From an uncultured Victivallales bacterium (GTDB taxonomy: Bacteria; Verrucomicrobiota; Lentisphaeria; Victivallales; CAZBDL01): a stretch of 64,000 bases of DNA. The position numbers and the translations under genes are program-made. This document shows, piece by piece, positions 18,805 to 35,697 of this stretch. The stretch covers positions 25,474-89,473 of the forward strand of contig CAZBDL010000001.1 in the NCBI GenBank assembly GCA_964490525.1, in the 5' to 3' direction. Within the stretch, counting starts at the first letter, position 1, and each line of letters begins with the position of its first letter. The notes beneath the pieces are model-generated. The model did no database searches and was not told where the DNA came from. It saw only the letters and a program-made list of their open reading frames with translations.

Positions 18805-19407
18805 ATGGATCATGTCCTTGAGGCATGGGGCCCGTATGGCTGCTTCACCCGGCCCGACTTCGGGACGGAGCGGGTCAGCTACCCGGTGATCACCCCCTCG
18901 GCGGCCCGGGCGCTCTTCGAGGCGGTGTACTGGAAGCCGCAGATGGCCTGGCAGGTGACGCGGATCGAGGTCCTGCGGATGGGGCGAACGATGCCCCTGC
19001 GCACGAACGAGGTGAAGGCTCGGGCCGGCGCCAACCCGATCTTCGTGTCGGAGCACCGGATCCAGCGGCACAGCCTGATCCTGGCGGACATCGCCTACCG
19101 GCTGCATGCGGAGATCGTGTTCCTGGGCGGCGAGGCCCCCGGGCCGAAGCACACGGAGATGTTCCGCCGGCGCCTGGAGCGGGGCCAGGTCCACCACCGG
19201 CCCTATTTCGGGTGCCGCGAGTTCGCCTGCGAAGTGGGCCCGCCAACGGACAGGGAGCCGGAGCGAATCAGCCTTGACCTCGGCACGATGCTCCTCGACC
19301 GCGACTGGGAAGGGCTGGGCGACCCGCCCCGGTTCTTCCATGCCAGGATCGCGGACGGGACCATCATGGTTCCGGCGCGGCCGCTGCGCCAGGCAGGTGC
19401 CGCATGA
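18805..19407 (+). CDS. cas5c: Cas5c (Cas5d), type I-C pre-crRNA endoribonuclease and Cascade subunit
   Basis: LEAWGPYGCFTRPDFGTERVSYPVITPSAARALFEAVYWKP matches the hallmark Cas5d N-terminus. First gene of the cas5-cas8c-cas7 order. Confidence 0.9.
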   Translation: MDHVLEAWGPYGCFTRPDFGTERVSYPVITPSAARALFEAVYWKPQMAWQVTRIEVLRMGRTMPLRTNEVKARAGANPIFVSEHRIQRHSLILADIAYRLHAEIVFLGGEAPGPKHTEMFRRRLERGQVHHRPYFGCREFACEVGPPTDREPERISLDLGTMLLDRDWEGLGDPPRFFHARIADGTIMVPARPLRQAGAA

Positions 19408-20975
19408 TCGCCGCGCTGGCCAGGCTGCAGGAACGGCTGGTGGACGGGGGAGAGGCCCTGCCCGCCGGGTGGGAGAGGAGGAAGCTCACGGCCCTGGTGT
19501 GCGTGAACGAGGCCGGGCTTGGCATCGGCCTGCGCTTCCGCGAGGAGGATTTTCCCGTCCCCGTCCGTCCCCAGCGGGCGAACTCCATCGCTCCCGGGCT
19601 GGCCTGGGACACTCCGGAGTACGCCCTGGGCATCCCCCGGAAGTCGAGCCCGGAACGCACCGCCGAGATGCACCGGCTCTTCCGGCTGCGCCTCGACGCG
19701 CTGGACTGCGACGACCCCGGCCTGGAGGCCGTGCGCCGATTCCTCGCCAGGGAAGGGGACCGGCTGCTGTCCGGCATCGACCAGGTGGCCGCCCAGCCGG
19801 GCGCGACCCTCGGGTTCATCCTGCTCGACGACGAGGAGCCGGTCCACCTGCGGCCGGCCGTGCGGGCGGCGATCCAGGACGAACTGGACAGGGCGGCCGA
19901 TCCCGGCGAGGACGCCGAGGAGGGGCAATGCTCCATAACGGGGCGCGACGGGGCCATCGCCCGGCTCCACCCGAAGATCCGCTTCCCCGGCGGGCGGGCC
20001 AGCGGCACCAGCCTCGTCAGCTTCAACGCCCCCTCCCTTGAGCACTTCGGCAGGGAGCAGGGAGGAAACGCGGCCGTCGGGGAGGGCACGGCGGCCGATG
20101 CCGCCGCCGCGCTCAATGCCCTGCTGGCGCCGGACTCCCTGCGGAGGCTCATGGTCGAGGGACTGGCCGTCCTGGCCTGGACCGAGGGGCCGTCGCCGGC
20201 CGAGGGGCGCGTCATCCCGATGCTGGAGGGATCCGGCGACATCGCGGAGGAGGACCTGGAATCTTCGGATGCCGTCCACCTGGCGGTGCTGGCGCCTCGT
20301 GACGGGCGCCTCTCGGTCCAGCTCTGGGAGACCCTCCCCATGGGGACGCTGGCCGCCAGGATCGCCGAATGGCGGCGGCGGACGCGGCTGCCGGCCGACG
20401 CCGAGCCCCCGCCCCATTGGGCCGTGCTCCGTTCAATCCAGCGGGGAGGGGGCCAGGTGCCCCACGGGATCGCCACCGCGTACCTTCGGGCCATGGTCCT
20501 CGGGCTGCCGCTGCCGCCGTCCCTGGTGCGCCCGGCGCAGGAGGCCGTGCTCGCCGCGCTCGCGGCGCGGCGCCCCGTGCCGCCGGCCATCGCCATCGTC
20601 AACCATTCGGCCATGGAGGGCCGCGAACCCATGAACGAGGACATCCTCCTGCCGGCCGGGCAACAGTCGGAGGCCTACCGCCTCGGCCGGTTCTTCGCCG
20701 TCGTCTCCTGCGCCTGCCGCAAGGCCGGGCTCGACCGGAACGCCCCCCAGGCCGCCATGCGCCCCAGGGCCATGGCGGAAAGGGCCATGGCCAAGTACAA
20801 CGGCTACAGCATGGGCAAGGGGCTCCGCGTGCATTACGACAAGATCATCGACGACATCCTCGCGGGCGTCTCCGATCCGGTCCCGGAAACCCTCGGCCCC
20901 GTCCAGCGGGGAGAGTTCATCCTCGGATTCCACCACCAACGCAAGGCCATCTTCACCAAGGGAAAGGGCAACTGA
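19404..20975 (+). CDS. cas8c: Cas8c (Csd1), type I-C large subunit
   Basis: 523-aa ORF between cas5c and cas7c, with an ATGA overlap with cas5c. Position and size fit Csd1. The sequence was not independently recognised motif by motif. Confidence 0.75.
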   Translation: MIAALARLQERLVDGGEALPAGWERRKLTALVCVNEAGLGIGLRFREEDFPVPVRPQRANSIAPGLAWDTPEYALGIPRKSSPERTAEMHRLFRLRLDALDCDDPGLEAVRRFLAREGDRLLSGIDQVAAQPGATLGFILLDDEEPVHLRPAVRAAIQDELDRAADPGEDAEEGQCSITGRDGAIARLHPKIRFPGGRASGTSLVSFNAPSLEHFGREQGGNAAVGEGTAADAAAALNALLAPDSLRRLMVEGLAVLAWTEGPSPAEGRVIPMLEGSGDIAEEDLESSDAVHLAVLAPRDGRLSVQLWETLPMGTLAARIAEWRRRTRLPADAEPPPHWAVLRSIQRGGGQVPHGIATAYLRAMVLGLPLPPSLVRPAQEAVLAALAARRPVPPAIAIVNHSAMEGREPMNEDILLPAGQQSEAYRLGRFFAVVSCACRKAGLDRNAPQAAMRPRAMAERAMAKYNGYSMGKGLRVHYDKIIDDILAGVSDPVPETLGPVQRGEFILGFHHQRKAIFTKGKGN

Positions 20976-20976
20976 C

Positions 20977-22071
20977 ATGCAGCAGCAGGAAACCATCGGC
21001 CGGCACGACCTCGTGCTCCTCTTCGACGTCAGGAACGGCAACCCCAACGGCGACCCGGACGCGGGCGGCATCCCGCGAGTGAACCCGCTCAACGGGCACG
21101 GCATCGTCACCGACGTGTGCATCAAGCGCAAGATCCGCAACTTCGTCCAGCTCGACAAGGGGTTCGAGCCGCCGTACGACATCTACGTCCGGGAGAAGAG
21201 CGTCCTCGGCGCCGCCCACTTCAAGATCTGCGAGGAGCTGGGGATCGACGCCGGCGCGTCGGCGGTCCGCGAGATCGCCCCGGAGATCGCCGAGGCCATC
21301 GGCATGACCGAGTTGCCCGAGGGCGTCGAGGTCATTGAGGACGGCGACGCGCGGCGGCTGGTCGTGGCGTCCACCGCCGACGTGGCCGCCGTGAAGCGGT
21401 ACGTCAAGGAATCCGGGCTCGACAAGGCGGCCGCCAGGGCCGTGGCAGACACCCTCAAGGAGGCGCGGCCCCGCAAGCTCTCACGCGACGAGTCCGAGCG
21501 CGGATGCGAGGCCATGTGCCGGCGCTACTTCGACATCCGCGCCTTCGGCGCCGTCCTCTCCCTCAAGTCCGCCCCCAACTACGGGCAGGTGCGCGGCCCC
21601 GTCCAGGTCACCTTCGCCGAGAGCCTGGACCCCATCACCCCCGTCGAGACGACCGTCACGCGCTGCGCCGTGACCACCGAGGCCGAGTCCGCCGACCAGG
21701 GAGGGGAGAACCGCACCATGGGCCGGCGCACCATCGTCCCCTACGCCCTCTACCGTGCCCATGTCTTCGTCTCCGGCCCGTTCGCCGCGCGTACCGGGTT
21801 CGGCCAGGCGGACCTCGACCTGGTGCTCCGGGCCCTCGCCGGCATGTTCGAGCACGACCATGCCGCCGCACGCGGCGAGATGAACGTACGGGCCCTGTGC
21901 GGCTTCCGGCACGCCTCCCCCATGGGCAACGCCCCGTCGGGCACGCTCCTGGAGCGAATCAAGGCCACCAGGGCGCAGGACCGCCCCTGCCCCGCGTCGT
22001 TTGCCGACTACCGGATCGAGACGGACACCGGCAACCTCCCCGAGGGCGTCGAGTTCATCCGCGTCGTCTAG
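20977..22071 (+). CDS. cas7c: Cas7c (Csd2), type I-C backbone subunit
   Basis: LLFDVRNGNPNGDPDAGGIPRVNPLNGHGIVTDVCIKRKIRNFV is the characteristic Csd2 N-terminal signature. Confidence 0.9.
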   Translation: MQQQETIGRHDLVLLFDVRNGNPNGDPDAGGIPRVNPLNGHGIVTDVCIKRKIRNFVQLDKGFEPPYDIYVREKSVLGAAHFKICEELGIDAGASAVREIAPEIAEAIGMTELPEGVEVIEDGDARRLVVASTADVAAVKRYVKESGLDKAAARAVADTLKEARPRKLSRDESERGCEAMCRRYFDIRAFGAVLSLKSAPNYGQVRGPVQVTFAESLDPITPVETTVTRCAVTTEAESADQGGENRTMGRRTIVPYALYRAHVFVSGPFAARTGFGQADLDLVLRALAGMFEHDHAAARGEMNVRALCGFRHASPMGNAPSGTLLERIKATRAQDRPCPASFADYRIETDTGNLPEGVEFIRVV

Positions 22072-22253: not shown

Positions 22254-23859
22254 CCTTCGCCTCGCACGCGAGGCGCGGATTGAAACAACACATAAGCGGC
22301 GGTGATGGCGTCCTCGAAACCTTCGCCTCGCACGCGAGGCGCGGATTGAAACGGCCTGGACAAAAAAATCCTCATCGGGCATCTCCTTCGCCTCGCACGC
22401 GAGGCGCGGATTGAAACCGTTGCGGCGGACGCGGGGGACGCGCTGCGAGCCTTCGCCTCGCACGCGAGGCGCGGATTGAAACGCGGATTACGCGGCGTGT
22501 ATATTTGGGCGAAAGGCCTTCGCCTCGCACGCGAGGCGCGGATTGAAACCGGGTGATCTCGGTGCGGCCAATGGGAAACAGACCTTCGCCTCGCACGCGA
22601 GGCGCGGATTGAAACCTCGTGCCTTGACCCGAGGCTTGTATCAATTGAGTCCTTCGCCTCGCACGCGAGGCGCGGATTGAAACGAGTCGGGCACGTCCTC
22701 GAGGTAGCCGTTCACCGCCTTCGCCTCGCACGCGAGGCGCGGATTGAAACCGGGCGGTTGATATCCATACTGCGAACTACGCCACCTTCGCCTCGCACGC
22801 GAGGCGCGGATTGAAACCGGCTCCGCATGATCAGGGCATACAGCCCGCTCCCTTCGCCTCGCACGCGAGGCGCGGATTGAAACCTGCCGTTGCTGGCGAT
22901 CCTCGACGGGCATTCCTTCGCCTCGCACGCGAGGCGCGGATTGAAACCCGTCCAGCCCGTGGCGGACGACGTGGCCGAACTCCTTCGCCTCGCACGCGAG
23001 GCGCGGATTGAAACATGAGGGTCTTAGAGCTGATGCTGCTGGGGTACCCTTCGCCTCGCACGCGAGGCGCGGATTGAAACTTGCGCGCGCGCGGCCTCAA
23101 AAACGAGCAACGACCTTCGCCTCGCACGCGAGGCGCGGATTGAAACTCGGCGAGGCCGAGGATCGCCCCCTGGGCGGCGCCTTCGCCTCGCACGCGAGGC
23201 GCGGATTGAAACCCCGGCATGCCAGGCAGCTCCGGCTGGTCGAGCCTTCGCCTCGCACGCGAGGCGCGGATTGAAACCATGTCCTACGGACATAGCGTGG
23301 CAGGGGCGAGCCTTCGCCTCGCACGCGAGGCGCGGATTGAAACTGTGTGCACGGGAAATGTATGCAGCAACGCTTCCCTTCGCCTCGCACGCGAGGCGCG
23401 GATTGAAACACCGTCGGGCAGATGGCGGACTACCTGGGGATCGCCTTCGCCTCGCACGCGAGGCGCGGATTGAAACTCTCAATCACCATCGCCTGGGGGG
23501 GAGGACATTCCTTCGCCTCGCACGCGAGGCGCGGATTGAAACCCAGCAGGGGTACCTGCCGAGACATGCCGGGCACCTTCGCCTCGCACGCGGGGCGCGG
23601 ATTGAAACAATTTTTCCGTGGATGACGCCCAGGCGAAAGCCCCTTCGCCTCGCACGCGAGGCGCGGATTGAAACCCTAATTGTCTGCCAGCTCCCAGTCG
23701 AGGATCCTTCGCCTCGTACGCGAGGCGCGGATTGAAACGACGATTGACCGTGGATTCCTGTGGATGGCTTCTTCGCCGCATAATGAGGCGTGGATTGAAA
23801 TCATTGCCAAGCTGAGTGATATGTTCATATTCGCCCGATACCCGGGCGCGGATTGAAAC
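22254..23859 (+). CRISPR. Type I-C CRISPR array: 25 repeats (23 conserved plus 2 degenerate at the distal end) and 24 spacers
   Basis: The repeat is (C)CTTCGCCTCGCACGCGAGGCGCGGATTGAAAC, 32-33 nt, with a 7-bp stem CGCCTCG/CGAGGCG and the I-C-typical ATTGAAAC 3' end. The period is 64-68 bp. Point variants occur at 23577 and 23707. The degenerate repeats are at 23771-23801 and 23829-23859. Confidence 0.97.
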
Positions 23860-24184
23860 ATTGTAGCGTCCAATGGCAGGAAAAATCCCAATCCCCGCCC
23901 TGGCGGGGAGGGGAACCATTTCTGGCTGGAAGGGGAAATATCGGGAATCCTGTCCCCGGGTGGCCGGGGACGCGCTTTCCGGGCCCCCGGCAGGGGAATC
24001 CGGCCCAGAGGAAGGGGCGACATCGCCGCGAAGGTGCGTCAAAATGGCCCACGACTGCCTTGGCGTGGCAGTTAAAAATTCCACCTGGCAATCTCCGGGC
24101 TGATTCAACCCCAGCAGGAAGCTGGACGGCCGTCCATGGCACCGCCGCAGGCGGCTAGAATGGACTGGCCGGATTGTCCCGTTT

Positions 24185-25897: not shown

Positions 25898-25912
25898 GCA
25901 GGAGGACGGCAA

Positions 25913-26854
25913 ATGACTTCGGCCGAATACGAGCGGGCCATGGCGGAGGCGCAGGGCGACGCGGACACGATGCTCGGCGCGGCGTCCATGCGGATCCGGT
26001 CCCTGGAGCGGGAGCTTGCCGCAGGCCGGCCCCTGACGGAGGACCTGCGCGGGAAGTTCCGCCACCTGGCCATTGCGATGTCCCCGGAGAACCTCTCGCG
26101 GGACGGCGAGCTGTCCCCGGCGAGGGCCCGGGCGGCGCATGCCAGGCTGTCGCGCGAGTGGGGGGAGCTGGAGGCCCTGGCGGGCCGCAAGGTGACCCAG
26201 GACGAGATACTGGACGATTCGCCCATCGCCGAATGGGCCGGGCCGGTGGCCGCCCGGATCGCGGACTTCGCCGCCGACCTGGACCACGAGGACCGGGACA
26301 TGCTGCGGCGGGCCCTTGTCCGGGCGTTCCGCAGCGACCCGGAGGCATTGCGCCCCCTGATCGGCACAGGCGTCATTGAGGAGTCGTACTTCGATGGCCC
26401 GAAGGAAGGCGTGATCCGGCGCCAGGCGCAGGCGTGCGCAGGGGAGGGGATCTCCCCCGAGGCCGCGCCAGGACATACCCCCGCCCCCTGGTTCATCCAG
26501 GTGACGCGGGCCGGCGAGGACACGTTCCACCACCACGTCATGGCCCATGCGGCCGACGACGGCCGGCACGTCGAGGTCTGCCGCGTGTTCCCCATCAGCG
26601 ACGATGGCCAGCCGGGGGCGGAGTCCGCCCGCAACGCAACCCTGATCGCATGTGCCCCGGGACTCCTGGAGGCGTTGCGGAAGGCGGTCTCGGCAGAGGT
26701 GGTTAGGCTGGAAGGCGCCAACCTGAGCACGGAGCGCAGCCCCTGGGTGCGAATCGCCCGCAGCGCCATTGCCGAGGCCAGCGGGGAATCGGGGCCCTGG
26801 CGGCAGCCGCGGATCGCCAGGGACGACGAGCCCGAGGCGACGATGAGGCCGTAG
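25913..26854 (+). CDS. Hypothetical protein (313 aa) carrying an HTPxPW...LIAxAPxLLxxL module
   Basis: Complete ORF with SD AGGAGGA. Its C-terminal module is paralogous to 27267..27713. Confidence 0.55.
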   Translation: MTSAEYERAMAEAQGDADTMLGAASMRIRSLERELAAGRPLTEDLRGKFRHLAIAMSPENLSRDGELSPARARAAHARLSREWGELEALAGRKVTQDEILDDSPIAEWAGPVAARIADFAADLDHEDRDMLRRALVRAFRSDPEALRPLIGTGVIEESYFDGPKEGVIRRQAQACAGEGISPEAAPGHTPAPWFIQVTRAGEDTFHHHVMAHAADDGRHVEVCRVFPISDDGQPGAESARNATLIACAPGLLEALRKAVSAEVVRLEGANLSTERSPWVRIARSAIAEASGESGPWRQPRIARDDEPEATMRP

Positions 26855-26875
26855 CGCCGGAGCGGAGACCAGGCC

Positions 26876-27175
26876 ATGCGCTACCGATTGAACGACGGAA
26901 GAATCGTGCCGGCGGCCAAGGATTGCGACTGCTGCACGCACGCCGGCCCGCATTGGATCCACATGGACGATGCCTGGCGGGCACGGAACCGGCAACTCCT
27001 CCAATCCGGCACCAGCCTCGGAATCATGGGGCACGCCCAGGAAGAGCAGGCCCGCCTTCGGGCCAAGCTGTACGAGATGACGAGCCGGGGGATTGCCGAG
27101 ATCATCCGCGACGAGCCTCGGCAGGAGCGGCAGGTGGTGGGGGAAGAGGAATCCGACGAAGGCATGAAGGTGTAG
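26876..27175 (+). CDS. Hypothetical protein (99 aa)
   Basis: Complete ORF. Contains Cys/His-rich CDCCTHAGPHWIH. Confidence 0.45.
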   Translation: MRYRLNDGRIVPAAKDCDCCTHAGPHWIHMDDAWRARNRQLLQSGTSLGIMGHAQEEQARLRAKLYEMTSRGIAEIIRDEPRQERQVVGEEESDEGMKV

Positions 27176-27266
27176 ATTACCGGACGCGAAAGGATGGTCC
27201 CATTCCCGCCTCCGAGGAGCCGTCCATCACCCCCTGAATCCTCCCGCAACCAACCGGAGCCCGCCC

Positions 27267-27713
27267 ATGAGCAGCAACAAGCCCCTTCCCCACACCCCTG
27301 GCCCGTGGGTCGCCCCCAGTGCCGGCATCTGGACCAAGGACGGCGAGTGCATGATTGCCGCCATGGGGGGCCGCGATTGCGTGGCCAGCCGACGCAGGTA
27401 CGCCCGGGAGCACATGGGCGACACCGAGGAGCGCAATGCCGCCGAGATGGCCCTCTGCCGGGGCGATGCCCAGCTCATCGCCGCAGCTCCGGACATGCTG
27501 CAGTCCCTGACGAAGATCGTGGAGCAGGCGCAGAAGGCCATCGAGCGCAACCAGGGGCGCACAGCCGATGGCAACCTGGACGCGCTGGGTTCCCTGGCCG
27601 CCGTCAAGGGCCTTGCCCTGGATGCCATCCAGAAAGCCTCCGGGGGGATGGTCGGCCAGGGCCTGGCGAACGACCACGGGCATTGCGAGGACGAGCCATC
27701 CATCGCTCCGTGA
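27267..27713 (+). CDS. Hypothetical protein (148 aa), HTPGPW...LIAAAPDMLQSL module, tail EPSIAP
   Basis: Complete ORF; last gene of this plus-strand block. Confidence 0.5.
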   Translation: MSSNKPLPHTPGPWVAPSAGIWTKDGECMIAAMGGRDCVASRRRYAREHMGDTEERNAAEMALCRGDAQLIAAAPDMLQSLTKIVEQAQKAIERNQGRTADGNLDALGSLAAVKGLALDAIQKASGGMVGQGLANDHGHCEDEPSIAP

Positions 27714-27724
27714 GGCACCTCCGG

Positions 27725-28492
27725 CTACCCCCCGCAGATTCCGCAGGCACGGCCCTCGTCCGGGCCGCAGCGGCGCCCCGACTGCCCCTTGCCGAAGTGG
27801 CGGCAGCCTGAGTTGTGACGGATGCCCGAGGAGGTGTTCAGCCAATGCGTACCCGTTCCCACGCCGGCGCTCCCGGAGTCCTTGCCGGGAGGATCCGCCC
27901 CCCGGGATCCAGCCCCCCGGCGGTATTCCCATGGCGGGATACGGTCGGGACGCGACCAGAGCCCCAGGCCGGCGGCACGGGCCTCCGCCTCCGCCCCCGC
28001 CAACGCCTCGTCGTCGGAGTAGGCCAGGTAGTGCCAGGCCAGCCCGGCCTTGACCAGGGAAAGGTTCAGGTTCTCCCCGTCCGGGCAGAGCACCGTGGCC
28101 ACCGTGCGGCCGTACCGGTCCACCGCCTCCGGATGCACCGCCACCACCTTCCCGAAGACCCGGGCCGAGGCATGCTCCTTGGCCACCTGGCCGAAGTCCT
28201 GTCCCTTCTCCGGGCAGTCGATCCCCGCCAGGCGGATGCGCACCTGCACCCCCCCGTCGCGCAGCACCGTCAGGGTGTCCCCGTCGCTCACCCCCACGAC
28301 CTTCCCGGCGAAGGGCTCCATGGCGCGGAGCGCCGGCGCGGCAAGGGCCAGGAGCAGCAACGGCATGGCAAGGACAATGCCCTGCTGGAGGAAGAATTGG
28401 AGGCATCGGCCTGGGGGCTTCAGGCGGGTTCCCTTCAGGGCCTTCAGCCCACCCTCCGGCGGCCTGCCGTGATGCCTGTCCAGATGCCCCAT
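27725..28492 (-). CDS. Secreted staphylococcal-nuclease (SNase/thermonuclease)-like endonuclease
   Basis: GKVVGVSDGDTLTVL...VRIRLAGIDCPEKGQDFG...DRYGRTVA...LVKAGLAW is the SNase fold signature. It has a hydrophobic signal-like segment, LAMPLLLLALAAPALRA. ATG at 28492 has a GGAGGAGGAGG 6 nt upstream. Confidence 0.8.
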   Translation of the reverse strand: MGHLDRHHGRPPEGGLKALKGTRLKPPGRCLQFFLQQGIVLAMPLLLLALAAPALRAMEPFAGKVVGVSDGDTLTVLRDGGVQVRIRLAGIDCPEKGQDFGQVAKEHASARVFGKVVAVHPEAVDRYGRTVATVLCPDGENLNLSLVKAGLAWHYLAYSDDEALAGAEAEARAAGLGLWSRPDRIPPWEYRRGAGSRGADPPGKDSGSAGVGTGTHWLNTSSGIRHNSGCRHFGKGQSGRRCGPDEGRACGICGG

Positions 28493-28533
28493 GTCAACCT
28501 CCTCCTCCATGCGATGAACCTCCCCGTCCTGCA

Positions 28534-29301
28534 TCATGCCTCGATGACCGCGTATGCCGTGGATGACCCCCCGATGCTCCCCGGGTTGACGCACCGGCAG
28601 CCCTCCACCGTCGCCCCCGCATGCCGCAGGTGCGTGTGCCCATGCACCGCCCAGTCGAAGCGGGCCTCCGAGAGCAGTCCGGCGCATCCAGAGAAGGCGC
28701 TGAACGGGCCCGGCGGAAGCCGGTTCAGGTCCCGGTGCGGCAGCGTGTGCGTCAGCAGGATCGTGGCCCGCATCCCCGGCCGCAGATGCTCATGGATCGC
28801 GTCCACGCAACGGGCATGCTCCACCGCCGGGTCGAACCCCCGGATCGCATGGTCCGGCCAGCTCCCGCCGGCGAAGTCCAGCAGCCGTTGCCCCGGCACC
28901 GCCGCCAGGCTCCCGTCGTACCAGAGCGCGTTGCCCACCAGCAGCAGCCCGGGAACCGGCTCATGGCTCCCTACCACGTCCAGGCAATGCACATCCCAGC
29001 GCCCCGGGTCGTACAGCCGCCGGTGCTCCGCCACCGTCTCCGCTACGCTCCGCCCGAAGCACTCGTGGTTGCCCAGGACGAAGACCACCGGAACCCCCGG
29101 GAACCACTCCGCGAGGATCTCGTGCGGGTTGCGCCACGGCAGGGGCTCGGCGTCGAGCAACGGGCTCTCGAAGATGTCACCGGCCAGCAGCACCAGGCCC
29201 ACCCGTCCGGCCCGCCGGCGCACCCCCGCGAGACGGTGGGACAGGAGCCTAGGCTCCCCCGCCGGGTGGCTGTGCAGGTCGGCCAGGCAAAGGATGCGCA
29301 C
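28534..29301 (-). CDS. Calcineurin-like metallophosphoesterase
   Basis: ILCLADLH, LAGDIF, VLGNHE and GHTH motifs. GTG start at 29301 with GGGAGGG upstream. Confidence 0.75.
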   Translation of the reverse strand: MRILCLADLHSHPAGEPRLLSHRLAGVRRRAGRVGLVLLAGDIFESPLLDAEPLPWRNPHEILAEWFPGVPVVFVLGNHECFGRSVAETVAEHRRLYDPGRWDVHCLDVVGSHEPVPGLLLVGNALWYDGSLAAVPGQRLLDFAGGSWPDHAIRGFDPAVEHARCVDAIHEHLRPGMRATILLTHTLPHRDLNRLPPGPFSAFSGCAGLLSEARFDWAVHGHTHLRHAGATVEGCRCVNPGSIGGSSTAYAVIEA

Positions 29302-29316
29302 CGGGGCTCCCTCCCG

Positions 29317-29571
29317 TCACTTCTCCGGGTGCTCCTGGAGCCAGCGGCGCAGGCGCAGCGGATGGACATCCAGCCCCGCCTTCTTCAGCCCTTTCAGGAC
29401 GTACTGCTCGCCGCTTTCCGCAAGCGCCTTGCGGATCCATTCCGCGCCCTCGTTCAGGCACCGCTCCGTCCGTGCCTCCAGGGTATCCGGATCGCTCGTC
29501 GGCAGGGCCCCCAACCGGGCACCGAAACGCTTCGGGTTCGGGAGCTTCACCGCCTTCTTCCGCTTCGTCAT
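29317..29571 (-). CDS. Hypothetical basic small protein (84 aa)
   Basis: ATG at 29571 with GGAGG upstream, in frame with track ORF 29317..29691. First gene after the minus-strand promoter. Confidence 0.5.
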   Translation of the reverse strand: MTKRKKAVKLPNPKRFGARLGALPTSDPDTLEARTERCLNEGAEWIRKALAESGEQYVLKGLKKAGLDVHPLRLRRWLQEHPEK

Positions 29572-29649: not shown

Positions 29650-29678
29650 AAGATACCGTCCCGTGGTCGGCGTGTCAA
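29650..29678 (-). promoter_or_regulatory. Promoter of the minus-strand nuclease operon (TTGACA-N17-TATCTT)
   Basis: On the minus strand, TTGACA lies at 29678-29673 and TATCTT at 29655-29650. Confidence 0.55.
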
Positions 29679-29801
29679 GAGGACCCCACATCTACATGGA
29701 TGTTGACCCCGGGTTTGGCATACCATGGCTACATCGGGCCTCCAACCACACGCAGACTTGCATACAACTCTACCAATCGTATATCTAACAGGATTATGAT
29801 C

Positions 29802-29835
29802 TGTAGGCACGGGAAATGTATGCAGCAACGCTTGA
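29802..29835 (+). other. Protospacer-like self-match to CRISPR spacer 17 (23344-23377)
   Basis: 30 of 34 positions are identical, with an uninterrupted 27-nt run (29807-29833). Mismatches fall at spacer positions 4, 5, 33 and 34. The 5' flank at 29799-29801 is ATC. The match is in the same orientation as the crRNA sense strand. Confidence 0.9.
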
Positions 29836-29860
29836 CATACACGATTCATATGCCATATTT
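29832..29860 (+). promoter_or_regulatory. Promoter of the RHH-relaxase operon (TTGACA-N17-ATATTT)
   Basis: TTGACA at 29832-29837 and ATATTT at 29855-29860. Same architecture and same -10 hexamer as the cas promoter. Confidence 0.6.
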
Positions 29861-29895
29861 GTAGCAAAGTACACAACAGCAGCAGGAGAATGACC

Positions 29896-30123
29896 ATGGC
29901 AGGCAAGCCCGAGGCATCGGTATCCGTCCGTGTTGACGCGATCGTGTACGCTGAAATGAGGGGAATCGCCGCAGAGGAAGGAATCTCAATCACGGATCTG
30001 GTTTCCGCGTGCTTCAAGGCATATGTTCGGGAACGCATGGCCGCAAATGCCGGCGTTGTCCGGATCGAAGAACGCCTGGTCGCCATCGAGCAAAAGCTCA
30101 ACCTCTTCCTTGAGGTCGAATGA
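29896..30123 (+). CDS. Ribbon-helix-helix (CopG/MobC-like) relaxase accessory protein
   Basis: VSVRVDAIVYAEMRGIAAEEGISITDLVSACFKAYV fits a beta-alpha-alpha RHH. ATGA overlap with the relaxase gene. ATG at 29896 has AGGAGA 7 nt upstream (alternative start 29890). Confidence 0.6.
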   Translation: MAGKPEASVSVRVDAIVYAEMRGIAAEEGISITDLVSACFKAYVRERMAANAGVVRIEERLVAIEQKLNLFLEVE

Positions 30124-31166
30124 TGCCGAACGTGATCATCAAGATCACCAGCAGAATCCCCCCGCAGAAGATCGGGGAGGCGCTGGGCTACGCCGACGAG
30201 ATGCACAAGGAGAAGATCCATGAGGAAGTCAAGGTTGGCCTGGGCGGATACCTGTCGCTCTGCTGCCATGGCTCGCCCTTGGCGACGCTGGTGAAGCGCT
30301 CGGCCGGAACCAAGAGCATCCGCATGGTCTTTTCGTTCTCGGAAGAGTATGTCAATCGACTTGAGGACAGGATGATGCATGTCAACCGTGTCCTGGAGCA
30401 TGTCGTCCATGGCACAATGGCCGAGTTCAGCAAGCACCTCTTCGGAGCAACGCATGAGATCGGCTACGCCTTCGGGCGCCACGACGGCACGGACAACAAG
30501 CACTTCCACCTAGTCGTCTGCCCCAGGTCATGGTCGAACAGGTCGGTGTTCGTTGTGGGCGACATCAATATCCCAGGAGAGAAAGTACCTGCCAAGGGGA
30601 TGACGCCACGGTGGAAGATTATGACTGGCGCCGCCAACCGCATCTCCGATGAGATCGTCTCGGCGGAGCCCGGGACCAAGGCCGGCTTCCTGTCGATGGA
30701 GATGCTGATCGAACGGCTCTTGCAGCTCGTCAACACCGGAGCCATTGAGCATGCAGAGGTTCAGGATCTGATCCATGCCCTGCAGCTTGAGATCAGGAAT
30801 GAACGCCTCGGGATCAAGAGGCCGATCAAGGTGGTTCGGCTCCAGCGCAAGGTCGGGAAGTTCCTGGCGGAGCGGGGCCTCCTGGTCCGCAGCAAGCCTC
30901 GTCGGAAACCTGCGGTGAACTCATGGAGAGATGTCGGCAACCCCTTCTATATCGACGACGTCAACCCGATGGCGGCCGTATCCTCGGGAAACTCTGGAGG
31001 GGGTCAAGGCATTGCCTGGCCGGGACTGAAGCGGCCGGCGCAGGAGATCGGGCAACAGCAGGTCGCCAGGCCCGCCCCGGCGCAACGGGTCGAGCCGCCG
31101 GCGCGAACCATCGCCCCGCCGGCCATCGACCATGGACACCACGAGGACGGCGGCATGAGGCCGTAG
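30120..31166 (+). CDS. Conjugative relaxase / mobilisation nuclease (MobA/VirD2 family)
   Basis: The N-terminal VIIKITSRI...ALGYADE layout and the histidine triad HDGTDNKHFHLVV (HxDx..HxH) are typical of MOBP/MOBQ relaxases. Confidence 0.75.
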   Translation: MMPNVIIKITSRIPPQKIGEALGYADEMHKEKIHEEVKVGLGGYLSLCCHGSPLATLVKRSAGTKSIRMVFSFSEEYVNRLEDRMMHVNRVLEHVVHGTMAEFSKHLFGATHEIGYAFGRHDGTDNKHFHLVVCPRSWSNRSVFVVGDINIPGEKVPAKGMTPRWKIMTGAANRISDEIVSAEPGTKAGFLSMEMLIERLLQLVNTGAIEHAEVQDLIHALQLEIRNERLGIKRPIKVVRLQRKVGKFLAERGLLVRSKPRRKPAVNSWRDVGNPFYIDDVNPMAAVSSGNSGGGQGIAWPGLKRPAQEIGQQQVARPAPAQRVEPPARTIAPPAIDHGHHEDGGMRP

Positions 31167-33501: not shown

Positions 33502-35697
33502 ATGACCCCGTTCTTCGCGCTCAACGACATCCTGGCCATCGCCGCCGCCATGGCGCTGGTCCTTGGCCTGTCGGGGCCGCCGTCGCTCGGCTGGATCGGC
33601 GTGCTCGCCCCGGGCCTGCTCCTGCCCATCCTGCGCGAGCGCGGGGTCAAGGTGCCGCCGGCGGGATTCGTGGCCACGGCCGCGGTCGCGGCGCTCGGAT
33701 GCCTCGGCTTCCTGGCGCCGGACATTCCCTGGCTGCCGCATCCCGCCGCCGCCGTCGCCTCGCCGGCGTTCATCCTCTGGTGCCTGGCCATGGCCGCCGC
33801 CCTGGCCGGGAGCCAATGGCCCGTGGAGTGCCGGAAGACCATCCTCTGCGAGTATGCCGGCGTGGCGCTGCTGACCTGGGCCTACCGGACGAACGGGGCC
33901 TTCCTCCCGCGCGACGGCGAGCAGCTCCTCAGCGGCGCCTATGCGTTCCCCGTGGGGGGCGGACTGGCCCTGATCGTCCTGGCCCAGCTCTTCCATGAGC
34001 CCGACACAGGCAAGGGCAAGGGGACCCTGCGCGGCAAGGCCGGCGACCATAAGCCGGTGGTGTCCCTTGGCGGCATCGACTGGGGCATCCGCGACTTCGT
34101 GCGCGGCTGGCTCATCACCGGCGTGACCGGCTCCGGCAAGACCGTGGCCGCCATCAAGACCATGATGATCCAGATCTTCCGCAACCGGCCCGACTGGGGC
34201 GGCTGCGTGGTCGACGAGAAGGGATCGTTCCACGAGATCGTCCGCGAGATCGCCGTGGGCCAGGGCAAGGCCGACAAGATCGTGGTCCTGCAGGTGCGCC
34301 CCGAAGGCGCCCCCGCCCAATGGCGGCCAAAGAACCGGTACAACATCCTCTCCTACCCGGGGCTTCCCGCCCCCACCTACGCCAAGCTCATCGCGGACAC
34401 CGCCGCCGCCGTCACCGGCAAGGGGGAGGAGAAGGCGTTCTTCAAGACCCAGGCGCTCGCCCAGATGTCGGCCGGCATCGCCCTCCTGGAGCTTGTCGCG
34501 AAGATGGAGAACGTCCCCCGCGAGTCCTGCGTCCGGCTCGACCGCCTCTACGAGACCATCTCGTCCCCCGTCGAGGCCCGGCGGGCCGTCGAGCGCGTCT
34601 CCCACGCCATCCATGCCCGCTACGGCGACCAGGTGGAGCGCCTGTTCAACTACCTCCCGGCCCCCGTCCGGGCGACGGTCTCCCAGCAGGTCGACGCCGC
34701 CTACACGAACATCCAGGAGGCGAACGAGAAGCGAGGCCGGCAGATGGCCGTCTTCGACCCCAACGTCCGGGCCGGCTCCCGGACCAGCGGGCAGCCCCTC
34801 TTCCACCCCCTCCTGGTCGAGGCCGTGGTCAACGAGTCCAACCAGCCCACCGCCCCGCCGTTCATGCGCCGCATGCTGCCCCTGTCCGACCTTGAGCTGC
34901 TCACCCAGTACCACAAGGTGGCCAGCCACTTCAACGACAAGTTCCTCTCGCAGCCGCCCGACCAGCTCGGCGGCGTGACATCCACCATCGACAACTACCT
35001 GCGGTTCTTCCAGGCCCCCGCCATCGCCGAGACGTTCTGCACCGACCGCAACACCGTCGACTTCTGCGACATCGACAAGGGCACGATCTTCGTCATCTCC
35101 ATGCCCCAGACCTACGCCGTCGAGCGGCAGTACCTGAACACGATCTTCAAGCTGCTCTTCTACACCCACGCCCTGCGCCGGTTCGACCAGCCGCCGGACG
35201 TCCGCGCCGGTAACAACCTGCTCATCTTCTGGGCCGACGAGGCCCAGGGCGTCGTCACCGCCTCCGACGGCGGCATGGAGGACTACTCCGTGGTCGACAA
35301 GACCCGGGAGGCCATGGCCACCGTCGTCTTCGCCACCCAGTCCAGCACCTCGTTCCTCCCCAAGCTCAACGACAAGAAGACCGAGGTGCTCATGCTCAAC
35401 CTGGCGAACCGCGTCTTCTTCGGCTGCGCCGACGAGCGCGGCGCCGAGCTTGCCGCCAAGACCATCGGCAAGACGCGGCAGAAGTACCAGGACGGGATTT
35501 CCCATGGCCGGGGCGGCAGCGCCGTCCAGTACAAGTTCCAGGACGAATACATCTTCAAGCCCCACGAACTGCGGGCGCTGAACAAGTTCGAGGCCATCGT
35601 CAACCATTGCGAGAAGGGCGCCATCCGCACCTACATCCCCCCCGTCGAGGCCGACGGTTCCACGTCCCCGTGGTTCCGCAAGGGGCGGACGTTGTGA
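33502..35697 (+). CDS. Type IV coupling protein (TraG/VirD4/TraD family)
   Basis: N-terminal TM segments, Walker A GVTGSGKT and Walker B-like LLIFWADEAQ. 731 aa. Located downstream of the relaxase. Confidence 0.8.
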   Translation: MTPFFALNDILAIAAAMALVLGLSGPPSLGWIGVLAPGLLLPILRERGVKVPPAGFVATAAVAALGCLGFLAPDIPWLPHPAAAVASPAFILWCLAMAAALAGSQWPVECRKTILCEYAGVALLTWAYRTNGAFLPRDGEQLLSGAYAFPVGGGLALIVLAQLFHEPDTGKGKGTLRGKAGDHKPVVSLGGIDWGIRDFVRGWLITGVTGSGKTVAAIKTMMIQIFRNRPDWGGCVVDEKGSFHEIVREIAVGQGKADKIVVLQVRPEGAPAQWRPKNRYNILSYPGLPAPTYAKLIADTAAAVTGKGEEKAFFKTQALAQMSAGIALLELVAKMENVPRESCVRLDRLYETISSPVEARRAVERVSHAIHARYGDQVERLFNYLPAPVRATVSQQVDAAYTNIQEANEKRGRQMAVFDPNVRAGSRTSGQPLFHPLLVEAVVNESNQPTAPPFMRRMLPLSDLELLTQYHKVASHFNDKFLSQPPDQLGGVTSTIDNYLRFFQAPAIAETFCTDRNTVDFCDIDKGTIFVISMPQTYAVERQYLNTIFKLLFYTHALRRFDQPPDVRAGNNLLIFWADEAQGVVTASDGGMEDYSVVDKTREAMATVVFATQSSTSFLPKLNDKKTEVLMLNLANRVFFGCADERGAELAAKTIGKTRQKYQDGISHGRGGSAVQYKFQDEYIFKPHELRALNKFEAIVNHCEKGAIRTYIPPVEADGSTSPWFRKGRTL

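What the first reader, a model, noticed from the sequence alone, without database searches (positions are those of the whole stretch)
29799..29837. CRISPR spacer 17 matches the element's own relaxase-operon promoter, with an off-consensus PAM and seed mismatches
Spacer 17 (23344-23377, TGTGTGCACGGGAAATGTATGCAGCAACGCTTCC) aligns to 29802-29835 (TGTAGGCACGGGAAATGTATGCAGCAACGCTTGA). That is 30 of 34 identities with an unbroken 27-nt run.

The match sits in the 150-bp divergent control region between the nuclease operon promoter (29650-29678, minus) and the RHH-relaxase promoter. Its 3' end overlaps the -35 TTGACA (29832-29837). The 5' flank is ATC rather than the canonical I-C TTC. The internal mismatches are exactly at seed positions 4 and 5.

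There are two readings:
- (a) With no Cas3, Cascade binds here weakly or conditionally and represses or tunes transcription of the transfer genes, a built-in CRISPRi circuit.
- (b) The spacer was acquired against a competing sibling plasmid, and the resident copy carries PAM and seed escape changes that confer self-immunity.

Either way, the array is aimed at conjugation control DNA of this plasmid family.
Basis: seen in the sequence. Interest (0 to 1): 0.9.

Follow-up and report, generated by a model that had tools for sequence, protein, structure and literature searches.

The report
Plasmid CRISPR spacer matching own oriT
A conjugative plasmid carries a stripped-down CRISPR system with no cutting enzyme, and one of its 24 spacers is a near-copy (30 of 33 bases) of the plasmid's own probable transfer origin, most likely a record of a closely related rival plasmid rather than a built-in self-regulator.

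Summary
Spacer 17 (23344-23376) matches 29802-29834 at 30/33, with a 27-nt unbroken run, an ATC 5' flank and mismatches at positions 4, 5 and 33. Every other spacer reaches only 16-25 identities in the window; about 1e-6 such matches are expected by chance.

The context also holds. The window has cas5c-cas8c-cas7c and a 25-repeat array, but no cas3, cas1, cas2 or cas4. It lies on a Rep_3/T4SS plasmid of a very rare family.

The target is more than a promoter. It lies 13 bp from an invariant ACAGGAT motif, whose reverse complement ATCCTG|T matches the MOBP nick consensus. It covers the repeated 8-mers between that motif and the promoter of an RHH gene and a divergent MobA/VirD2-like relaxase. 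This is an RP4-like oriT core.

That oriT/RHH allele is unique to this plasmid; siblings carry unalignable alleles. No relative with a perfect protospacer exists in the collections searched.

A purine at PAM -3 plus two adjacent seed mismatches is the worst geometry for Cascade binding. I therefore favour a spacer derived from a sibling or ancestor, with the resident copy unrecognised. Tuned self-CRISPRi is a minority reading. Only one spacer supports "array aimed at conjugation DNA".

The parts
18805..19407 (+). cas5c (200 aa)
   Evidence: Pfam Cas_Cas5d, E=8.8e-26, near full-length.
19404..20975 (+). cas8c (523 aa), a highly divergent and shortened form. A possible internal Cas11c start lies at GVG382 (position 20547, preceded by AGGAGG) or at M410.
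   Evidence: Pfam Cas_Csd1, E=1.4e-65. The nearest homologue among 5.8 billion proteins is 28% identical. It lacks a segment of about 30 aa in the wedge domain that is present in 11 of 11 homologues. The C-terminus aligns to Cas11c chains.
20977..22071 (+). cas7c (364 aa)
   Evidence: Pfam Cas_Cas7, E=3.3e-82.
22254..23860 (+). CRISPR array: 23 canonical 33-nt repeats, 2 degenerate terminal repeats and 24 spacers
   Evidence: Weak CRISPR-DR9 hits on the + strand.
23344..23376 (+). Spacer 17
29799..29801 (+). PAM position of the resident protospacer (ATC)
29802..29834 (+). Resident protospacer, 30/33 identical to spacer 17. It contains the direct 8-mers TGTAGGCA (29802-29809) and TGTATGCA (29817-24).
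29788..29794 (-). Probable nick motif. ACAGGAT on the + strand reads ATCCTG|T on the minus strand. The inferred nick lies between 29789 and 29788 on the minus strand.
   Evidence: ACAGGAT is identical in four of the six relatives and reads ACTGGAT in L002 and L006. It is the only conserved block within an otherwise hypervariable intergenic region. It is centred between the inverted 8-mers at 29759-66 and 29817-24. Its identity as a nick site rests on analogy with the RP4 and T-DNA border consensus (established knowledge); it is not tested.
29759..29766 (+). Left arm (TGCATACA) of the inverted repeat that flanks the nick motif. The right arm is 29817-29824, inside the protospacer.
   Evidence: pair I4. 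TGTATGCA occurs in the window only here, at 29817 and in spacer 17.
29832..29859 (+). Predicted promoter of the RHH-relaxase operon (TTGACA-16-CATATT, with TG extension)
   Evidence: consensus scan only.
29650..29678 (-). Predicted divergent promoter of the leader operon (84-aa protein, Metallophos, SNase)
   Evidence: Gene content.
29896..30123 (+). 75-aa ribbon-helix-helix protein, probably a relaxosome accessory protein or autorepressor
   Evidence: Sub-threshold RHH_4, CopG, NikA-like, RHH_1, RHH_3 and VirD1 hits recur across the homologues. This allele is unique in the database.
30123..31166 (+). 347-aa divergent MobA/VirD2-type relaxase (Y23, FSFSE 70-74, HDGTDNKHFH 120-129)
   Evidence: Invariant motifs. 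Pfam Relaxase PF03432, E=0.056. Distant profile hits carry PF03432 or MobL.
33502..35697 (+). Type IV coupling protein
   Evidence: Pfam T4SS-DNA_transf, TrwB_AAD_bind and TraG-D_C.

Best explanation
Spacer 17 is an ordinary acquired spacer. Its source was the oriT core of a plasmid carrying the same MOB allele as this one, either a close sibling or competitor, or an earlier form of this plasmid's own MOB module.

**What the target is.** It is the block of RHH-type operator subsites lying between the nick motif and the promoter of the RHH-relaxase operon. This is the position where TraJ binds in RP4.

**Why the resident copy escapes.** It differs at PAM -3 (a purine, A) and at two adjacent seed positions (4 and 5). 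R-loops in type I systems nucleate from the PAM-proximal end, so the plasmid's own Cascade should bind its own oriT poorly or not at all. The plasmid can therefore keep both the spacer and its transfer functions.

**What a perfect match would suffer.** The cassette has no Cas3, and its Cas8c lacks the segment where canonical I-C Cascades carry the Cas3 recruit loop. Against a perfectly matching sibling it could only act by binding. It would occlude the relaxosome site, the nick site 13 bp away and the -35. That would be a CRISPR-guided form of fertility inhibition or inter-plasmid competition, analogous to type IV-A and V-M.

**Shown**
- The match is real.
- cas3 and the adaptation genes are absent from the window.
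- Cas8c is highly divergent and carries the deletion.
- The oriT-like anatomy is present.
- The locus is mosaic among siblings.

**Inferred**
- The nick site.
- RHH binding to the 8-mers.
- The PAM preference of this Cascade.
- That Cascade is expressed and binds.
- The identity of the spacer donor.
For: **The match is homologous, not chance.**
- 30/33 identities, against 16-25 for every other spacer. About 1e-6 such matches are expected by chance.

**The target has an oriT architecture.**
- The ACAGGAT block is conserved in all six relatives, including those with only 41-46% relaxase identity. L002 and L006 read ACTGGAT. The surrounding DNA is unalignable.
- The motif is centred between the inverted 8-mers. 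TGTATGCA occurs nowhere else in the 64 kb except in spacer 17.
- The siblings keep the same layout, two direct subsites 15 bp apart plus one inverted subsite, but with a different word, GTTACA.

**The downstream genes fit a relaxosome.**
- They encode an RHH protein and a protein with the Y / SF / HxDxDNxHxH relaxase motifs.
- Its distant relatives are Pfam relaxases.

**The locus is mosaic.**
- Metallophos is 87-98% identical and the 84-aa protein 83-90% identical to the siblings. The RHH protein is only 45-47% identical and the relaxase 66-71%.
- Divergence of 3 in 33 is therefore what a sibling carrying the same MOB allele would show.

**The system looks binding-only.**
- No cas3, cas1, cas2 or cas4 was found in the window.
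- The cas-array cassette is a 5.2-kb indel relative to sibling L002.
- Cas8c lacks the wedge-domain loop that all 11 homologues have. That region corresponds to the Cas3 recruit loop, or to the disordered 290-348 segment of Dvu Cas8c.

**The PAM is probably poor.**
- Canonical I-C PAM data place ATC outside the efficient set (PMC5602111).
- Structural work states that purines at -3 clash with the PAM loop.

**It does not look like a regulatory crRNA.**
- Spacer 17 sits mid-array between canonical repeats.
- No seed-only, CreR-like matches of any spacer exceed chance.
Against: - **No donor found.** No plasmid with a perfect protospacer or a TTC flank exists in any collection searched. The window-type RHH allele has no other member among 5.8 billion proteins. 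The donor is therefore hypothetical.
- **Mismatch placement is not significant.** Two of three mismatches falling in the seed has p of about 0.12 under random placement. Selection for escape is not demonstrated.
- **The PAM is unknown.** The PAM specificity of this very divergent Cas8c is not known: the tip of the PAM loop reads ANS rather than GNG or SGS, and the wedge Q212 equivalent is Ala. ATC might be tolerated.
- **Binding alone may not pay.** Binding at a competitor's oriT would not obviously remove the competitor, so the selective benefit is uncertain.
- **Unseen sequence.** About 25.7 kb of the plasmid and the whole host genome were not seen. Cas3 and Cas1-2-4 could be supplied in trans.
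- **No expression evidence.** No consensus promoter was found in the leader.
Confidence: 0.5

Rival explanations
1. Autoimmunity scar or relic. The spacer was taken by accident from this plasmid's own oriT, or was inherited with the cassette from a replicon that once defended against this plasmid family. The self-match was then neutralised by target mutations at PAM -3 and in the seed, by loss of Cas3, or by both. Today it has no function.
For: - Self-targeting spacers are usually interpreted as autoimmunity accidents followed by target or cas degradation (Stern et al. 2010, cited in PMC9071438).
- cas3 and the adaptation genes are absent from the window.
- Spacer 17 is old: it is 17th of 24 from the leader.
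- The array ends in decayed repeats.
- No other spacer has any identifiable target.
- No donor plasmid was found.
Against: - cas5, cas8 and cas7 are intact, full-length against Pfam, and have a high GC3 of 0.90-0.96, like the backbone genes. This argues for maintained function.
- 23 repeats are almost identical.
- Cas8c is far too diverged (28% identity) for Cas3 loss to be a recent reaction to one spacer that is still 91% identical to its target.
- This reading shares with the best explanation the prediction that the resident site is not bound. It differs only in whether the system is still in use.
Confidence: 0.22
2. Built-in attenuated CRISPRi, the first reader's reading (a). Cascade with crRNA 17 binds the resident site weakly or conditionally. 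This tunes transcription of the RHH-relaxase operon and access of the relaxosome to oriT. The mismatches set the strength of repression.
For: - The target lies on the -35 and on the probable relaxosome site, where binding would have the largest regulatory effect.
- The system lacks Cas3, so a self-match would be non-lethal.
- There are 27 contiguous matched bases.
- Interference-stage PAM recognition in I-C is comparatively relaxed. In L. pneumophila, 18 of 64 PAMs gave more than 50% protection, many of them sharing 2 nt with TTC.
- The PAM-reading residues differ here.
- Type IV-A shows that natural self-targeting CRISPRi exists (PMC11656645).
Against: - The imperfect part is the PAM and the seed. 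These gate R-loop nucleation in type I (established knowledge; the seed effect in I-C is shown). Known autoregulatory crRNAs do the opposite.
- Spacer 17 has no special position or atypical repeat.
- The operon already has an RHH protein with cognate repeated subsites, which is the classical autoregulator in RP4-like oriTs.
- Sibling L002 runs the same backbone with no cas-array cassette at the corresponding place.
- There is no conservation evidence, because no second plasmid carries this array.
Confidence: 0.13
3. Cas3 and the adaptation proteins are supplied in trans, from the unseen 25.7 kb of the plasmid or from a host I-C system. The array would then be a normal cleaving defence, and the resident PAM and seed differences would be obligatory escape from self-cleavage.
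For: - MGE-borne CRISPR loci without adaptation modules are thought to use host modules in trans (PMC9071438; type IV-A3).
- A 22-spacer array implies past access to Cas1-Cas2-Cas4.
- The repeat has the standard I-C stem-loop and ATTGAAAC handle.
Against: - Cas8c lacks the wedge-domain loop region used for Cas3 recruitment in canonical I-C.
- Exact 29-mer and 23-mer portions of the repeat are absent from 185,579 representative genomes, from the JGI metagenomes and from IMG/VR.
- No cas3 was found in the window.
Confidence: 0.1

Closest known systems
Plasmid-borne nuclease-free CRISPR systems used in inter-plasmid competition (type IV-A3, type V-M/Cas12m)
   Same: Both are carried on a conjugative plasmid and have no effector nuclease and no adaptation module. 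Their presumed action is binding or transcriptional silencing. In the known systems the spacers match conjugation functions of related plasmids (PMC11656645; 10.1101/2023.06.23.546257).
   Different: The effector here is a type I-C Cascade (Cas5c, Cas8c, Cas7c), not Csf proteins or Cas12m. There is no DinG helicase. Only one spacer has an identifiable match, and that match is to the carrier itself, with mismatches.
Canonical type I-C CRISPR-Cas (D. vulgaris, N. lactamica, B. halodurans, L. pneumophila)
   Same: The cas5c-cas8c-cas7c gene order is shared. So is the repeat, with its stem-loop and ATTGAAAC 3' handle. The Cas11c-homologous C-terminus of Cas8c has plausible internal start codons.
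   Different: There is no cas3, cas4, cas1 or cas2 in the window. Cas8c is 523 aa against 580-612 aa and is at most 28-30% identical to any other Cas8c. It lacks the wedge-domain loop. The PAM-loop tip is ANS rather than GNG or SGS, and the wedge Gln is replaced.
Cas3-less type I Cascades of CRISPR-associated transposons (I-F3, I-B, I-C, I-D CASTs)
   Same: Both are type I effector complexes that lost Cas3 and the adaptation genes and were repurposed on a mobile element.
   Different: No TnsA, TnsB, TnsC or TniQ genes are adjacent. The indel relative to sibling L002 contains only cas5-8-7 and the array. The array is long (24 spacers), whereas CAST arrays are very short.
RP4 (IncP) oriT, TraJ and TraI relaxosome region, and Ti-plasmid T-DNA borders with VirD1/VirD2
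   Same: Shared features are divergent promoters flanking oriT and a nick motif ATCCTG|Y. Repeats lie between the nick and the gene of a small DNA-binding accessory protein, which is followed by a relaxase with a Tyr motif and an HxDxDNxHxH motif. The divergent 'leader' operon enters the recipient first (established knowledge; anatomy).
   Different: The relaxase falls below the Pfam threshold and is only 347 aa. The accessory protein is an RHH of a family that recurs only in 5-6 environmental contigs. Nothing has been tested biochemically.
Self-targeting CRISPR spacers as autoimmunity (Stern et al. 2010), and S. epidermidis spc1 targeting the nickase gene of conjugative plasmids (Marraffini and Sontheimer 2008)
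   Same: Both involve a spacer matching DNA of the replicon's own lineage or of conjugation machinery, with mismatches at the PAM and seed as the usual way such a match is tolerated.
   Different: The spacer and its target are on the same plasmid. The target is a non-coding origin or operator rather than a gene. The system has no nuclease.
Cas-regulating RNAs and natural CRISPRi autoregulators (CreR, tracr-L, type IV-A self-targeting of pilN)
   Same: In both cases a crRNA-like guide with incomplete complementarity is directed at a promoter of the same genome.
   Different: Those guides pair at the PAM-proximal end next to a functional PAM, and they usually have a dedicated position or an atypical repeat. 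Here the PAM and seed are the mismatched part, and the spacer is an ordinary array member.

Membership tests
Type I-C CRISPR-Cas | Effector genes cas5c, cas8c (Csd1) and cas7c (Csd2) in one operon, with no cas6 | tested here: met
   Pfam Cas_Cas5d 8.8e-26, Cas_Csd1 1.4e-65 and Cas_Cas7 3.3e-82, all contiguous on the + strand.
Type I-C CRISPR-Cas | The signature gene cas3 (HD nuclease plus helicase) in the locus | tested here: not met
   No HD or helicase protein was found among the ORFs scanned across the 64 kb. 25.7 kb of the element was not seen.
Type I-C CRISPR-Cas | Adaptation module cas4-cas1-cas2 | tested here: not met
   None was found in the window. The flanks of the cassette are Rep_3 with its iterons on one side and a DUF3846 gene on the other.
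Type I-C CRISPR-Cas | A repeat of 32-33 nt with a stem-loop and an 11-nt 5' handle ending in ATTGAAAC | tested here: met
   The repeat is CCTTCGCCTCGCACGCGAGGCGCGGATTGAAAC, present in 23 copies. It shows blastn similarity to the N. vulgaris pDV1 arrays.
Type I-C CRISPR-Cas | A Cas8c wedge-domain recruit loop for Cas3 | tested here: inconclusive
   A segment of about 30 aa present in 11 of 11 homologues is missing at alignment columns 339-370. The gap abuts or overlaps Nla A276-P297 and Dvu 291-343. The alignment in this region is of low confidence.
Type I-C CRISPR-Cas | 5'-TTC PAM read by the PAM-interaction loop (GNG or SGS) and a Gln wedge | tested here: inconclusive
   The loop tip is A59-N60-S61 and the Q212 equivalent is Ala. 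No protospacer of any other spacer was found from which to derive the PAM.
MOBP/MOBQ-type (MobA/VirD2-like) relaxase with its oriT | An N-terminal catalytic Tyr, the motif II Ser, and the motif III HxDxDNxHxH | tested here: met
   Y23, F70-S71-F72-S73-E74 and H120-D121-G-T-D-N-K-H127-F-H129 are invariant in the five homologues. Assigning these residues to the motifs rests on recalled RP4 TraI and VirD2 motifs.
MOBP/MOBQ-type (MobA/VirD2-like) relaxase with its oriT | A significant match to a curated relaxase model | tested here: inconclusive
   The direct match to PF03432 has E=0.056, 14 bits against a cut-off of 24.6. Support is transitive: profile hits at E of 1e-7 to 1e-12 carry PF03432 (one at 35 bits) or MobL. 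The AlphaFold model was too poor (pLDDT 44) for a fold search.
MOBP/MOBQ-type (MobA/VirD2-like) relaxase with its oriT | A nick-region consensus YATCCTG|Y next to an inverted repeat, upstream of the relaxase operon | tested here: met
   The motif reads ATCCTGT on the minus strand at 29794-29788. It is conserved in all six relatives (L002 and L006 read ACTGGAT on the + strand) and is centred in the TGCATACA/TGTATGCA inverted repeat. Actual nicking is not testable here.
MOBP/MOBQ-type (MobA/VirD2-like) relaxase with its oriT | A small RHH accessory protein encoded next to oriT | tested here: inconclusive
   Sub-threshold but recurrent RHH_1, RHH_3, RHH_4, CopG, NikA-like and VirD1 hits occur in four of the five homologues scanned.
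Nuclease-free plasmid CRISPR for inter-plasmid competition (type IV-A / V-M functional class) | Carried on a conjugative plasmid, with no nuclease and no adaptation module | tested here: met
   The window carries Rep_3 genes, a T4CP, VirB4/TraC-like, TrbL and TrbI genes, and no cas3 or cas1-2-4.
Nuclease-free plasmid CRISPR for inter-plasmid competition (type IV-A / V-M functional class) | Spacers that predominantly match other plasmids, especially their conjugation genes | tested here: inconclusive
   One of 24 spacers matches plasmid DNA, and that DNA is its own oriT at 30/33. The other 23 have no match in PLSDB, INPHARED, IMG/VR (six spacers tested) or the sibling contigs.
Nuclease-free plasmid CRISPR for inter-plasmid competition (type IV-A / V-M functional class) | Type IV (Csf, DinG) or Cas12m effector proteins | tested here: not met
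   The effector genes are type I-C. This is an analogue, not a member.
CRISPR-associated transposon (CAST) | Adjacent Tn7-like tnsA/B/C and tniQ genes, with a very short array | tested here: not met
   The neighbours are Rep_3 genes and DUF3846/P22_Y8K6 genes. The cassette indel relative to L002 holds only cas5-8-7 and the array, and the array has 24 spacers.
Autoregulatory crRNA-like guides (CreR / tracr-L type) | PAM-proximal partial complementarity next to a functional PAM, and a dedicated or atypical repeat context | tested here: not met
   The mismatches are at PAM -3 and at seed positions 4 and 5, whereas the PAM-distal 27 nt are perfect. The flanking repeats are canonical. There are no seed-only matches above chance.

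The most novel reading that the evidence does not exclude
A stand-alone, Cas3-independent type I-C Cascade has been domesticated by a conjugative plasmid as a programmable fertility-inhibition or exclusion device that acts at oriT.

crRNA 17 is complementary to the strand that would be nicked and transferred. Its target lies within the last 45 nt or so at the 3' end of that T-strand.

Cascade could therefore act in two ways:
- It could occlude the relaxosome site, the nick site and the promoter on the double-stranded oriT of a sibling plasmid.
- It could bind the incoming single strand independently of the PAM and block relaxase-mediated recircularisation.

The carrier would protect its own oriT through differences at PAM -3 and in the seed.

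Loss of the Cas8c recruit-loop region would mark a new binding-only derivative of type I-C, convergent with type IV-A and V-M.
Probability: 0.25. Interest if true: 0.85.

Novelty: new variant of a known kind. Interest (0 to 1): 0.6.

Why it matters
Nuclease-free CRISPR systems that plasmids use against one another are so far known for type IV and type V-M. Cas3-less type I Cascades are known mainly from CRISPR-guided transposons.

This locus would add a third case. It is a free-standing type I-C Cascade with a Cas8c that appears to have shed the Cas3-docking region. It sits in what is probably the leading region of a conjugative plasmid.

Its one interpretable spacer points at the most specific piece of conjugation DNA there is: the oriT and relaxosome recognition module, which is the hypervariable 'identity tag' of this plasmid family.

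If the system is functional, it links CRISPR targeting to oriT specificity and fertility inhibition. It would also be a compact natural CRISPRi effector.

If it is not functional, it is a clean example of how a mobile element tolerates a self-matching spacer.

Tried and rejected
- **Chance match.** Rejected.
- **Opposite array orientation.** Rejected on the repeat handle, the cas gene strand, the degenerate distal repeats and the Rfam hits. Read in reverse, the flank would be TGT, which is not TTC either.
- **Search for a relative with a perfect protospacer.**
  - The 22-mer core is absent from the JGI metagenomes, the GTDB representative genomes and IMG/VR.
  - PLSDB has no relative of the 24-kb region.
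  - Relaxase homologues number only five, and their contigs carry unalignable oriT alleles.
  - The RHH allele has no other member.
- **Search for the same repeat elsewhere** (a host system, or other copies of the array). Nothing found.
- **Targets of the other spacers, to derive the PAM.**
  - Only noise and other I-C arrays in PLSDB and INPHARED.
  - Six spacers gave nothing in IMG/VR.
  - Nothing in sibling contigs L002-L005.
- **Seed-only (CreR-like) self-matches.** 24 hits against 19 +/- 10 expected, none with a TTC flank.
- **CAST hypothesis.** No transposition genes found.
- **Structure-based identification of the 347-aa protein.** The AlphaFold model has pLDDT 44, so no fold search was run. 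A PDB profile search was empty.
- **Extending beyond the window to look for cas3.** Only 1.3 kb was gained at the left end. The right-end protein is not on record.
- **Host identification.** Failed. The nearest T4CP in PLSDB is 32-34% identical (Opitutaceae, Termitidicoccus), a 147-nt stretch of cas7c is 78% identical to Deinococcus aetherius, and no source gives names.
Full report
**1. The observation**

The array runs from 22254 to 23860 on the + strand.
- It has 23 near-identical repeats and two decayed terminal repeats.

Spacer 17 aligns without gaps to 29802-29834 on the same strand.
- There are 30 identities. Mismatches are at positions 4, 5 and 33, and positions 6-32 form a 27-nt run.
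- None of the mismatches falls on a sixth-position base, which type I Cascades flip out. All three therefore count.
- The 5' flank is ATC.

The match is not chance.
- The best match of every other spacer in the window is 16-25 identities.
- The expected number of chance matches at 30/33 or better is about 1e-6.

- TTGACA-16-CATATT lies at 29832-29859 on the + strand.
- TTGACA-17-TATCTT lies at 29678-29650 on the minus strand.
- These are consensus scans only, and the host is unknown.

**2. The CRISPR-Cas module**

cas5c (18805-19407), cas8c (19404-20975) and cas7c (20977-22071) match their Pfam families over nearly the full model length. Their GC3 is high, at 0.90-0.96.

No Cas3, Cas1, Cas2 or Cas4 was found among the genes scanned across the 64 kb. 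The element is 89.7 kb, so 25.7 kb remains unseen.

Sibling contig L002 is 81% identical along the backbone. It goes directly from the Rep_3/iteron region to the DUF3846 gene. The 5.2 kb from about 18689 to 23908, holding cas5-8-7 and the array, is therefore an accessory cassette.

Cas8c is exceptional.
- Its nearest homologue among 5.8 billion proteins is 28% identical.
- It is 523 aa, against 579-612 aa for the others.
- In an alignment with 11 homologues it alone lacks about 30 residues at columns 339-370.
- Against solved structures the gap corresponds to Dvu residues 291-343, which are the disordered 290-348 segment. It abuts Nla 295-320.
- Nla A276-P297 in this wedge domain is the loop that recruits Cas3.
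- The PAM-loop tip is ANS where Dvu has GNG and Nla has SGS. The wedge Gln212 equivalent is Ala.
- The C-terminus still aligns to Cas11c. In-frame starts with Shine-Dalgarno-like sequences exist at codons 382 and 410.

Taken together, this looks like a Cascade that has evolved for a long time without Cas3. That is an inference.

**3. What the target is**

Downstream of the target lie two genes.
- The first encodes a 75-aa protein. It and its homologues give recurrent sub-threshold RHH, CopG, NikA-like and VirD1 hits.
- The second encodes a 347-aa protein with no Pfam hit at the default threshold.

The five members of the 347-aa family share invariant Y23, FSFSE (70-74) and HDGTDNKHFH (120-129). 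By recalled comparison with RP4 TraI and VirD2, these are relaxase motifs I, II and III.
- Directly, PF03432 Relaxase scores E=0.056 over residues 59-135.
- A profile search of 1.84 billion representative proteins found 56 relatives.
- Of ten of these that were scanned, five carry PF03432 (one above its threshold) and two carry MobL.
- I therefore accept it as a divergent MobA/VirD2-type relaxase.

In the intergenic region, six relatives were aligned, including two with only 41-46% relaxase identity.
- They share almost nothing except the block ACAGGAT at 29788-29794. L002 and L006 read ACTGGAT.
- Its reverse complement, ATCCTG|T, is the MOBP and T-DNA-border nick consensus (established knowledge).
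- The motif sits exactly midway between the inverted 8-mers TGCATACA (29759-66) and TGTATGCA (29817-24).
- TGTATGCA occurs nowhere else in the window except inside spacer 17.

The protospacer begins 13 bp from the inferred nick.
- It contains two direct subsites 15 bp apart: TGTAGGCA at 29802 and TGTATGCA at 29817.
- An inverted half-site, CATACA (29836-41), follows.
- Siblings keep this layout with a different word, GTTACA.

This is the RP4 arrangement: a nick site, then the binding repeats of an accessory protein, then the promoter of the accessory-protein and relaxase operon, with a divergent leader operon on the other side.

Spacer 17 is therefore a copy of the recognition core of an oriT, and not only of a promoter. 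Nicking and RHH binding are inferred, not shown.

**4. Family context**

The plasmid family is rare.
- There are five relaxase homologues in all and no relative in PLSDB.
- L001 is the same element assembled from SRR5011273.

Across siblings, conservation changes sharply at the intergenic region.

| Protein | Identity to siblings |
|---|---|
| Metallophos | 87-98% |
| 84-aa protein | 83-90% |
| RHH | 45-47% |
| Relaxase | 66-71% |

- There is thus a mosaic breakpoint in the intergenic region, and oriT plus RHH behaves as an exchangeable specificity module.
- The window's RHH allele has no other member in the database.
- The donor of spacer 17 therefore carried the window-type module, which is otherwise unsampled.
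- Three differences in 33 nt (9%) is what backbone divergence among siblings (2-19%) would predict.

**5. Other spacers**

None of the other 23 spacers matches any of the following:
- the window;
- the sibling contigs L002-L005;
- PLSDB or INPHARED beyond noise and other I-C arrays;
- IMG/VR, for the six spacers tested.

The repeat itself is absent from the three large collections. The claim that the array as a whole targets conjugation control DNA is therefore unsupported. The PAM of this system also cannot be derived empirically.

**6. Mechanism**

Canonical I-C data rank the PAMs as follows.
- In B. halodurans, the functional PAMs are TTC, CTC, TCC and TTT.
- Structural work argues that purines at -3 clash with the PAM loop.
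- ATC is thus at best a weak PAM, if this Cas8c behaves canonically.

Two adjacent seed mismatches add to this. Even a single T1A seed change measurably weakens I-C interference. R-loops in type I nucleate from the PAM-proximal end (established knowledge).

The resident site therefore has the least favourable arrangement for binding: an imperfect PAM and seed, with a perfect distal part. Natural regulatory guides show the opposite arrangement. In addition:
- spacer 17 has no special position or atypical repeat;
- no seed-only matches of any spacer exceed chance;
- the operon already has an RHH protein with cognate repeats.

I therefore rank the readings as follows.

| Reading | Confidence |
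|---|---|
| Spacer derived from a sibling or ancestor; resident copy unrecognised; Cascade binding-only against perfect matches | 0.5 |
| Autoimmunity scar or relic | 0.22 |
| Tuned self-CRISPRi | 0.13 |
| Cas3 supplied in trans | 0.1 |

Two of three mismatches falling in the seed has p of about 0.12 under random placement. 'Selected escape' is therefore plausible but not demonstrated.

**7. An untested extension**

- If the nick is on the minus strand at 29789/29788, transfer proceeds leftwards.
- The leader operon (84-aa protein, Metallophos, SNase), the DUF3846 and P22_Y8K6 genes, and then the CRISPR-Cas cassette would lie in the leading region.
- The protospacer's target strand would be the 3'-terminal segment of the T-strand.
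- A Cascade in a recipient cell could then bind the incoming single strand independently of the PAM and interfere with recircularisation.

This is speculation. I list it as the novel case.

**8. Verdict**

- The system is a new variant of a known kind: a nuclease-free plasmid CRISPR built from type I-C parts.
- Function is unproven, and no relatives are available for comparative tests.

Noticed in passing
window 18689-23908, compared with L002 3856-4643: The whole cas5-8-7 and array cassette (about 5.2 kb) is absent from the 81%-identical sibling L002. It sits in a repeat-rich, G-rich intergenic region (GGGGAAT and CTGGCTGGAAGGGGA motifs). The 15-mer CTGGCTGGAAGGGGA is present on both sides, at 18572-86 and 23922-36. 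How the cassette was gained or lost is unknown.
   Followed up: partly
window 19404-20975 (Cas8c); alignment A4, columns 50-62 and 339-370: Cas8c is a singleton, at most 28-30% identical to any other Cas8c. Two segments conserved in 11 homologues are deleted: part of the N-terminal 'vice' loop, and the wedge-domain loop where canonical I-C recruits Cas3. The conserved INATIRDRYF motif is also replaced.
   Followed up: partly
window 14521-18394: There are two tandem Rep_3-family initiator genes (14521-16023 and 16531-18057, both on the minus strand). Each has its own set of 22-bp iterons (16226-16314; 18230-18394, five copies of ACAGACTTTTTGGTGCAATT). The second iteron set lies about 400 bp upstream of the cas5 promoter region.
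   Followed up: no
window 29680-30120, compared with L003 and L002: There is a sharp mosaic breakpoint. L003 is 98% identical in Metallophos and 90% in the 84-aa protein, but only 45% in the RHH protein and 66% in the relaxase. The oriT, RHH and relaxase module appears to be exchanged among backbones of this family.
   Followed up: partly
window 59749-62252: A low-GC island (52-60% against 67% for the backbone) carries a type II restriction-modification pair: an Eco57I/N6_Mtase-like methylase and a XamI-family endonuclease.
   Followed up: no
window 1-14508 and L007: There is a cluster of genes typical of polyvalent anti-restriction or establishment proteins of conjugative elements: LPD1/LPD5 (8376-10010), ART-PolyVal (13693-14508), an AAA_5 ATPase (2797-3996) and RadC (seen in L007).
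   Followed up: no
window 24785-29571: Between oriT and the array lie an 84-aa protein, a calcineurin-like phosphoesterase and a staphylococcal-nuclease-like protein, all on the minus strand and forming the divergent 'leader' operon. There are also DUF3846 and P22_Y8K6-like genes on the + strand. If the nick assignment is right, this region and the CRISPR-Cas cassette form the leading region, with the + strand genes templated by the T-strand.
   Followed up: no
window 44272-46467: A 731-aa protein with three divergent InlB B-repeat (Flg_new_2) domains is embedded in the T4SS operon. It may be a surface adhesin or mating-pair stabiliser.
   Followed up: no
window 22072-22253 (leader): No consensus sigma-70 promoter was found in the CRISPR leader. 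The array may be co-transcribed with cas7, or it may use a non-consensus promoter. A 28-nt imperfect inverted repeat (22073-22100 / 22181-22208) spans the leader.
   Followed up: no
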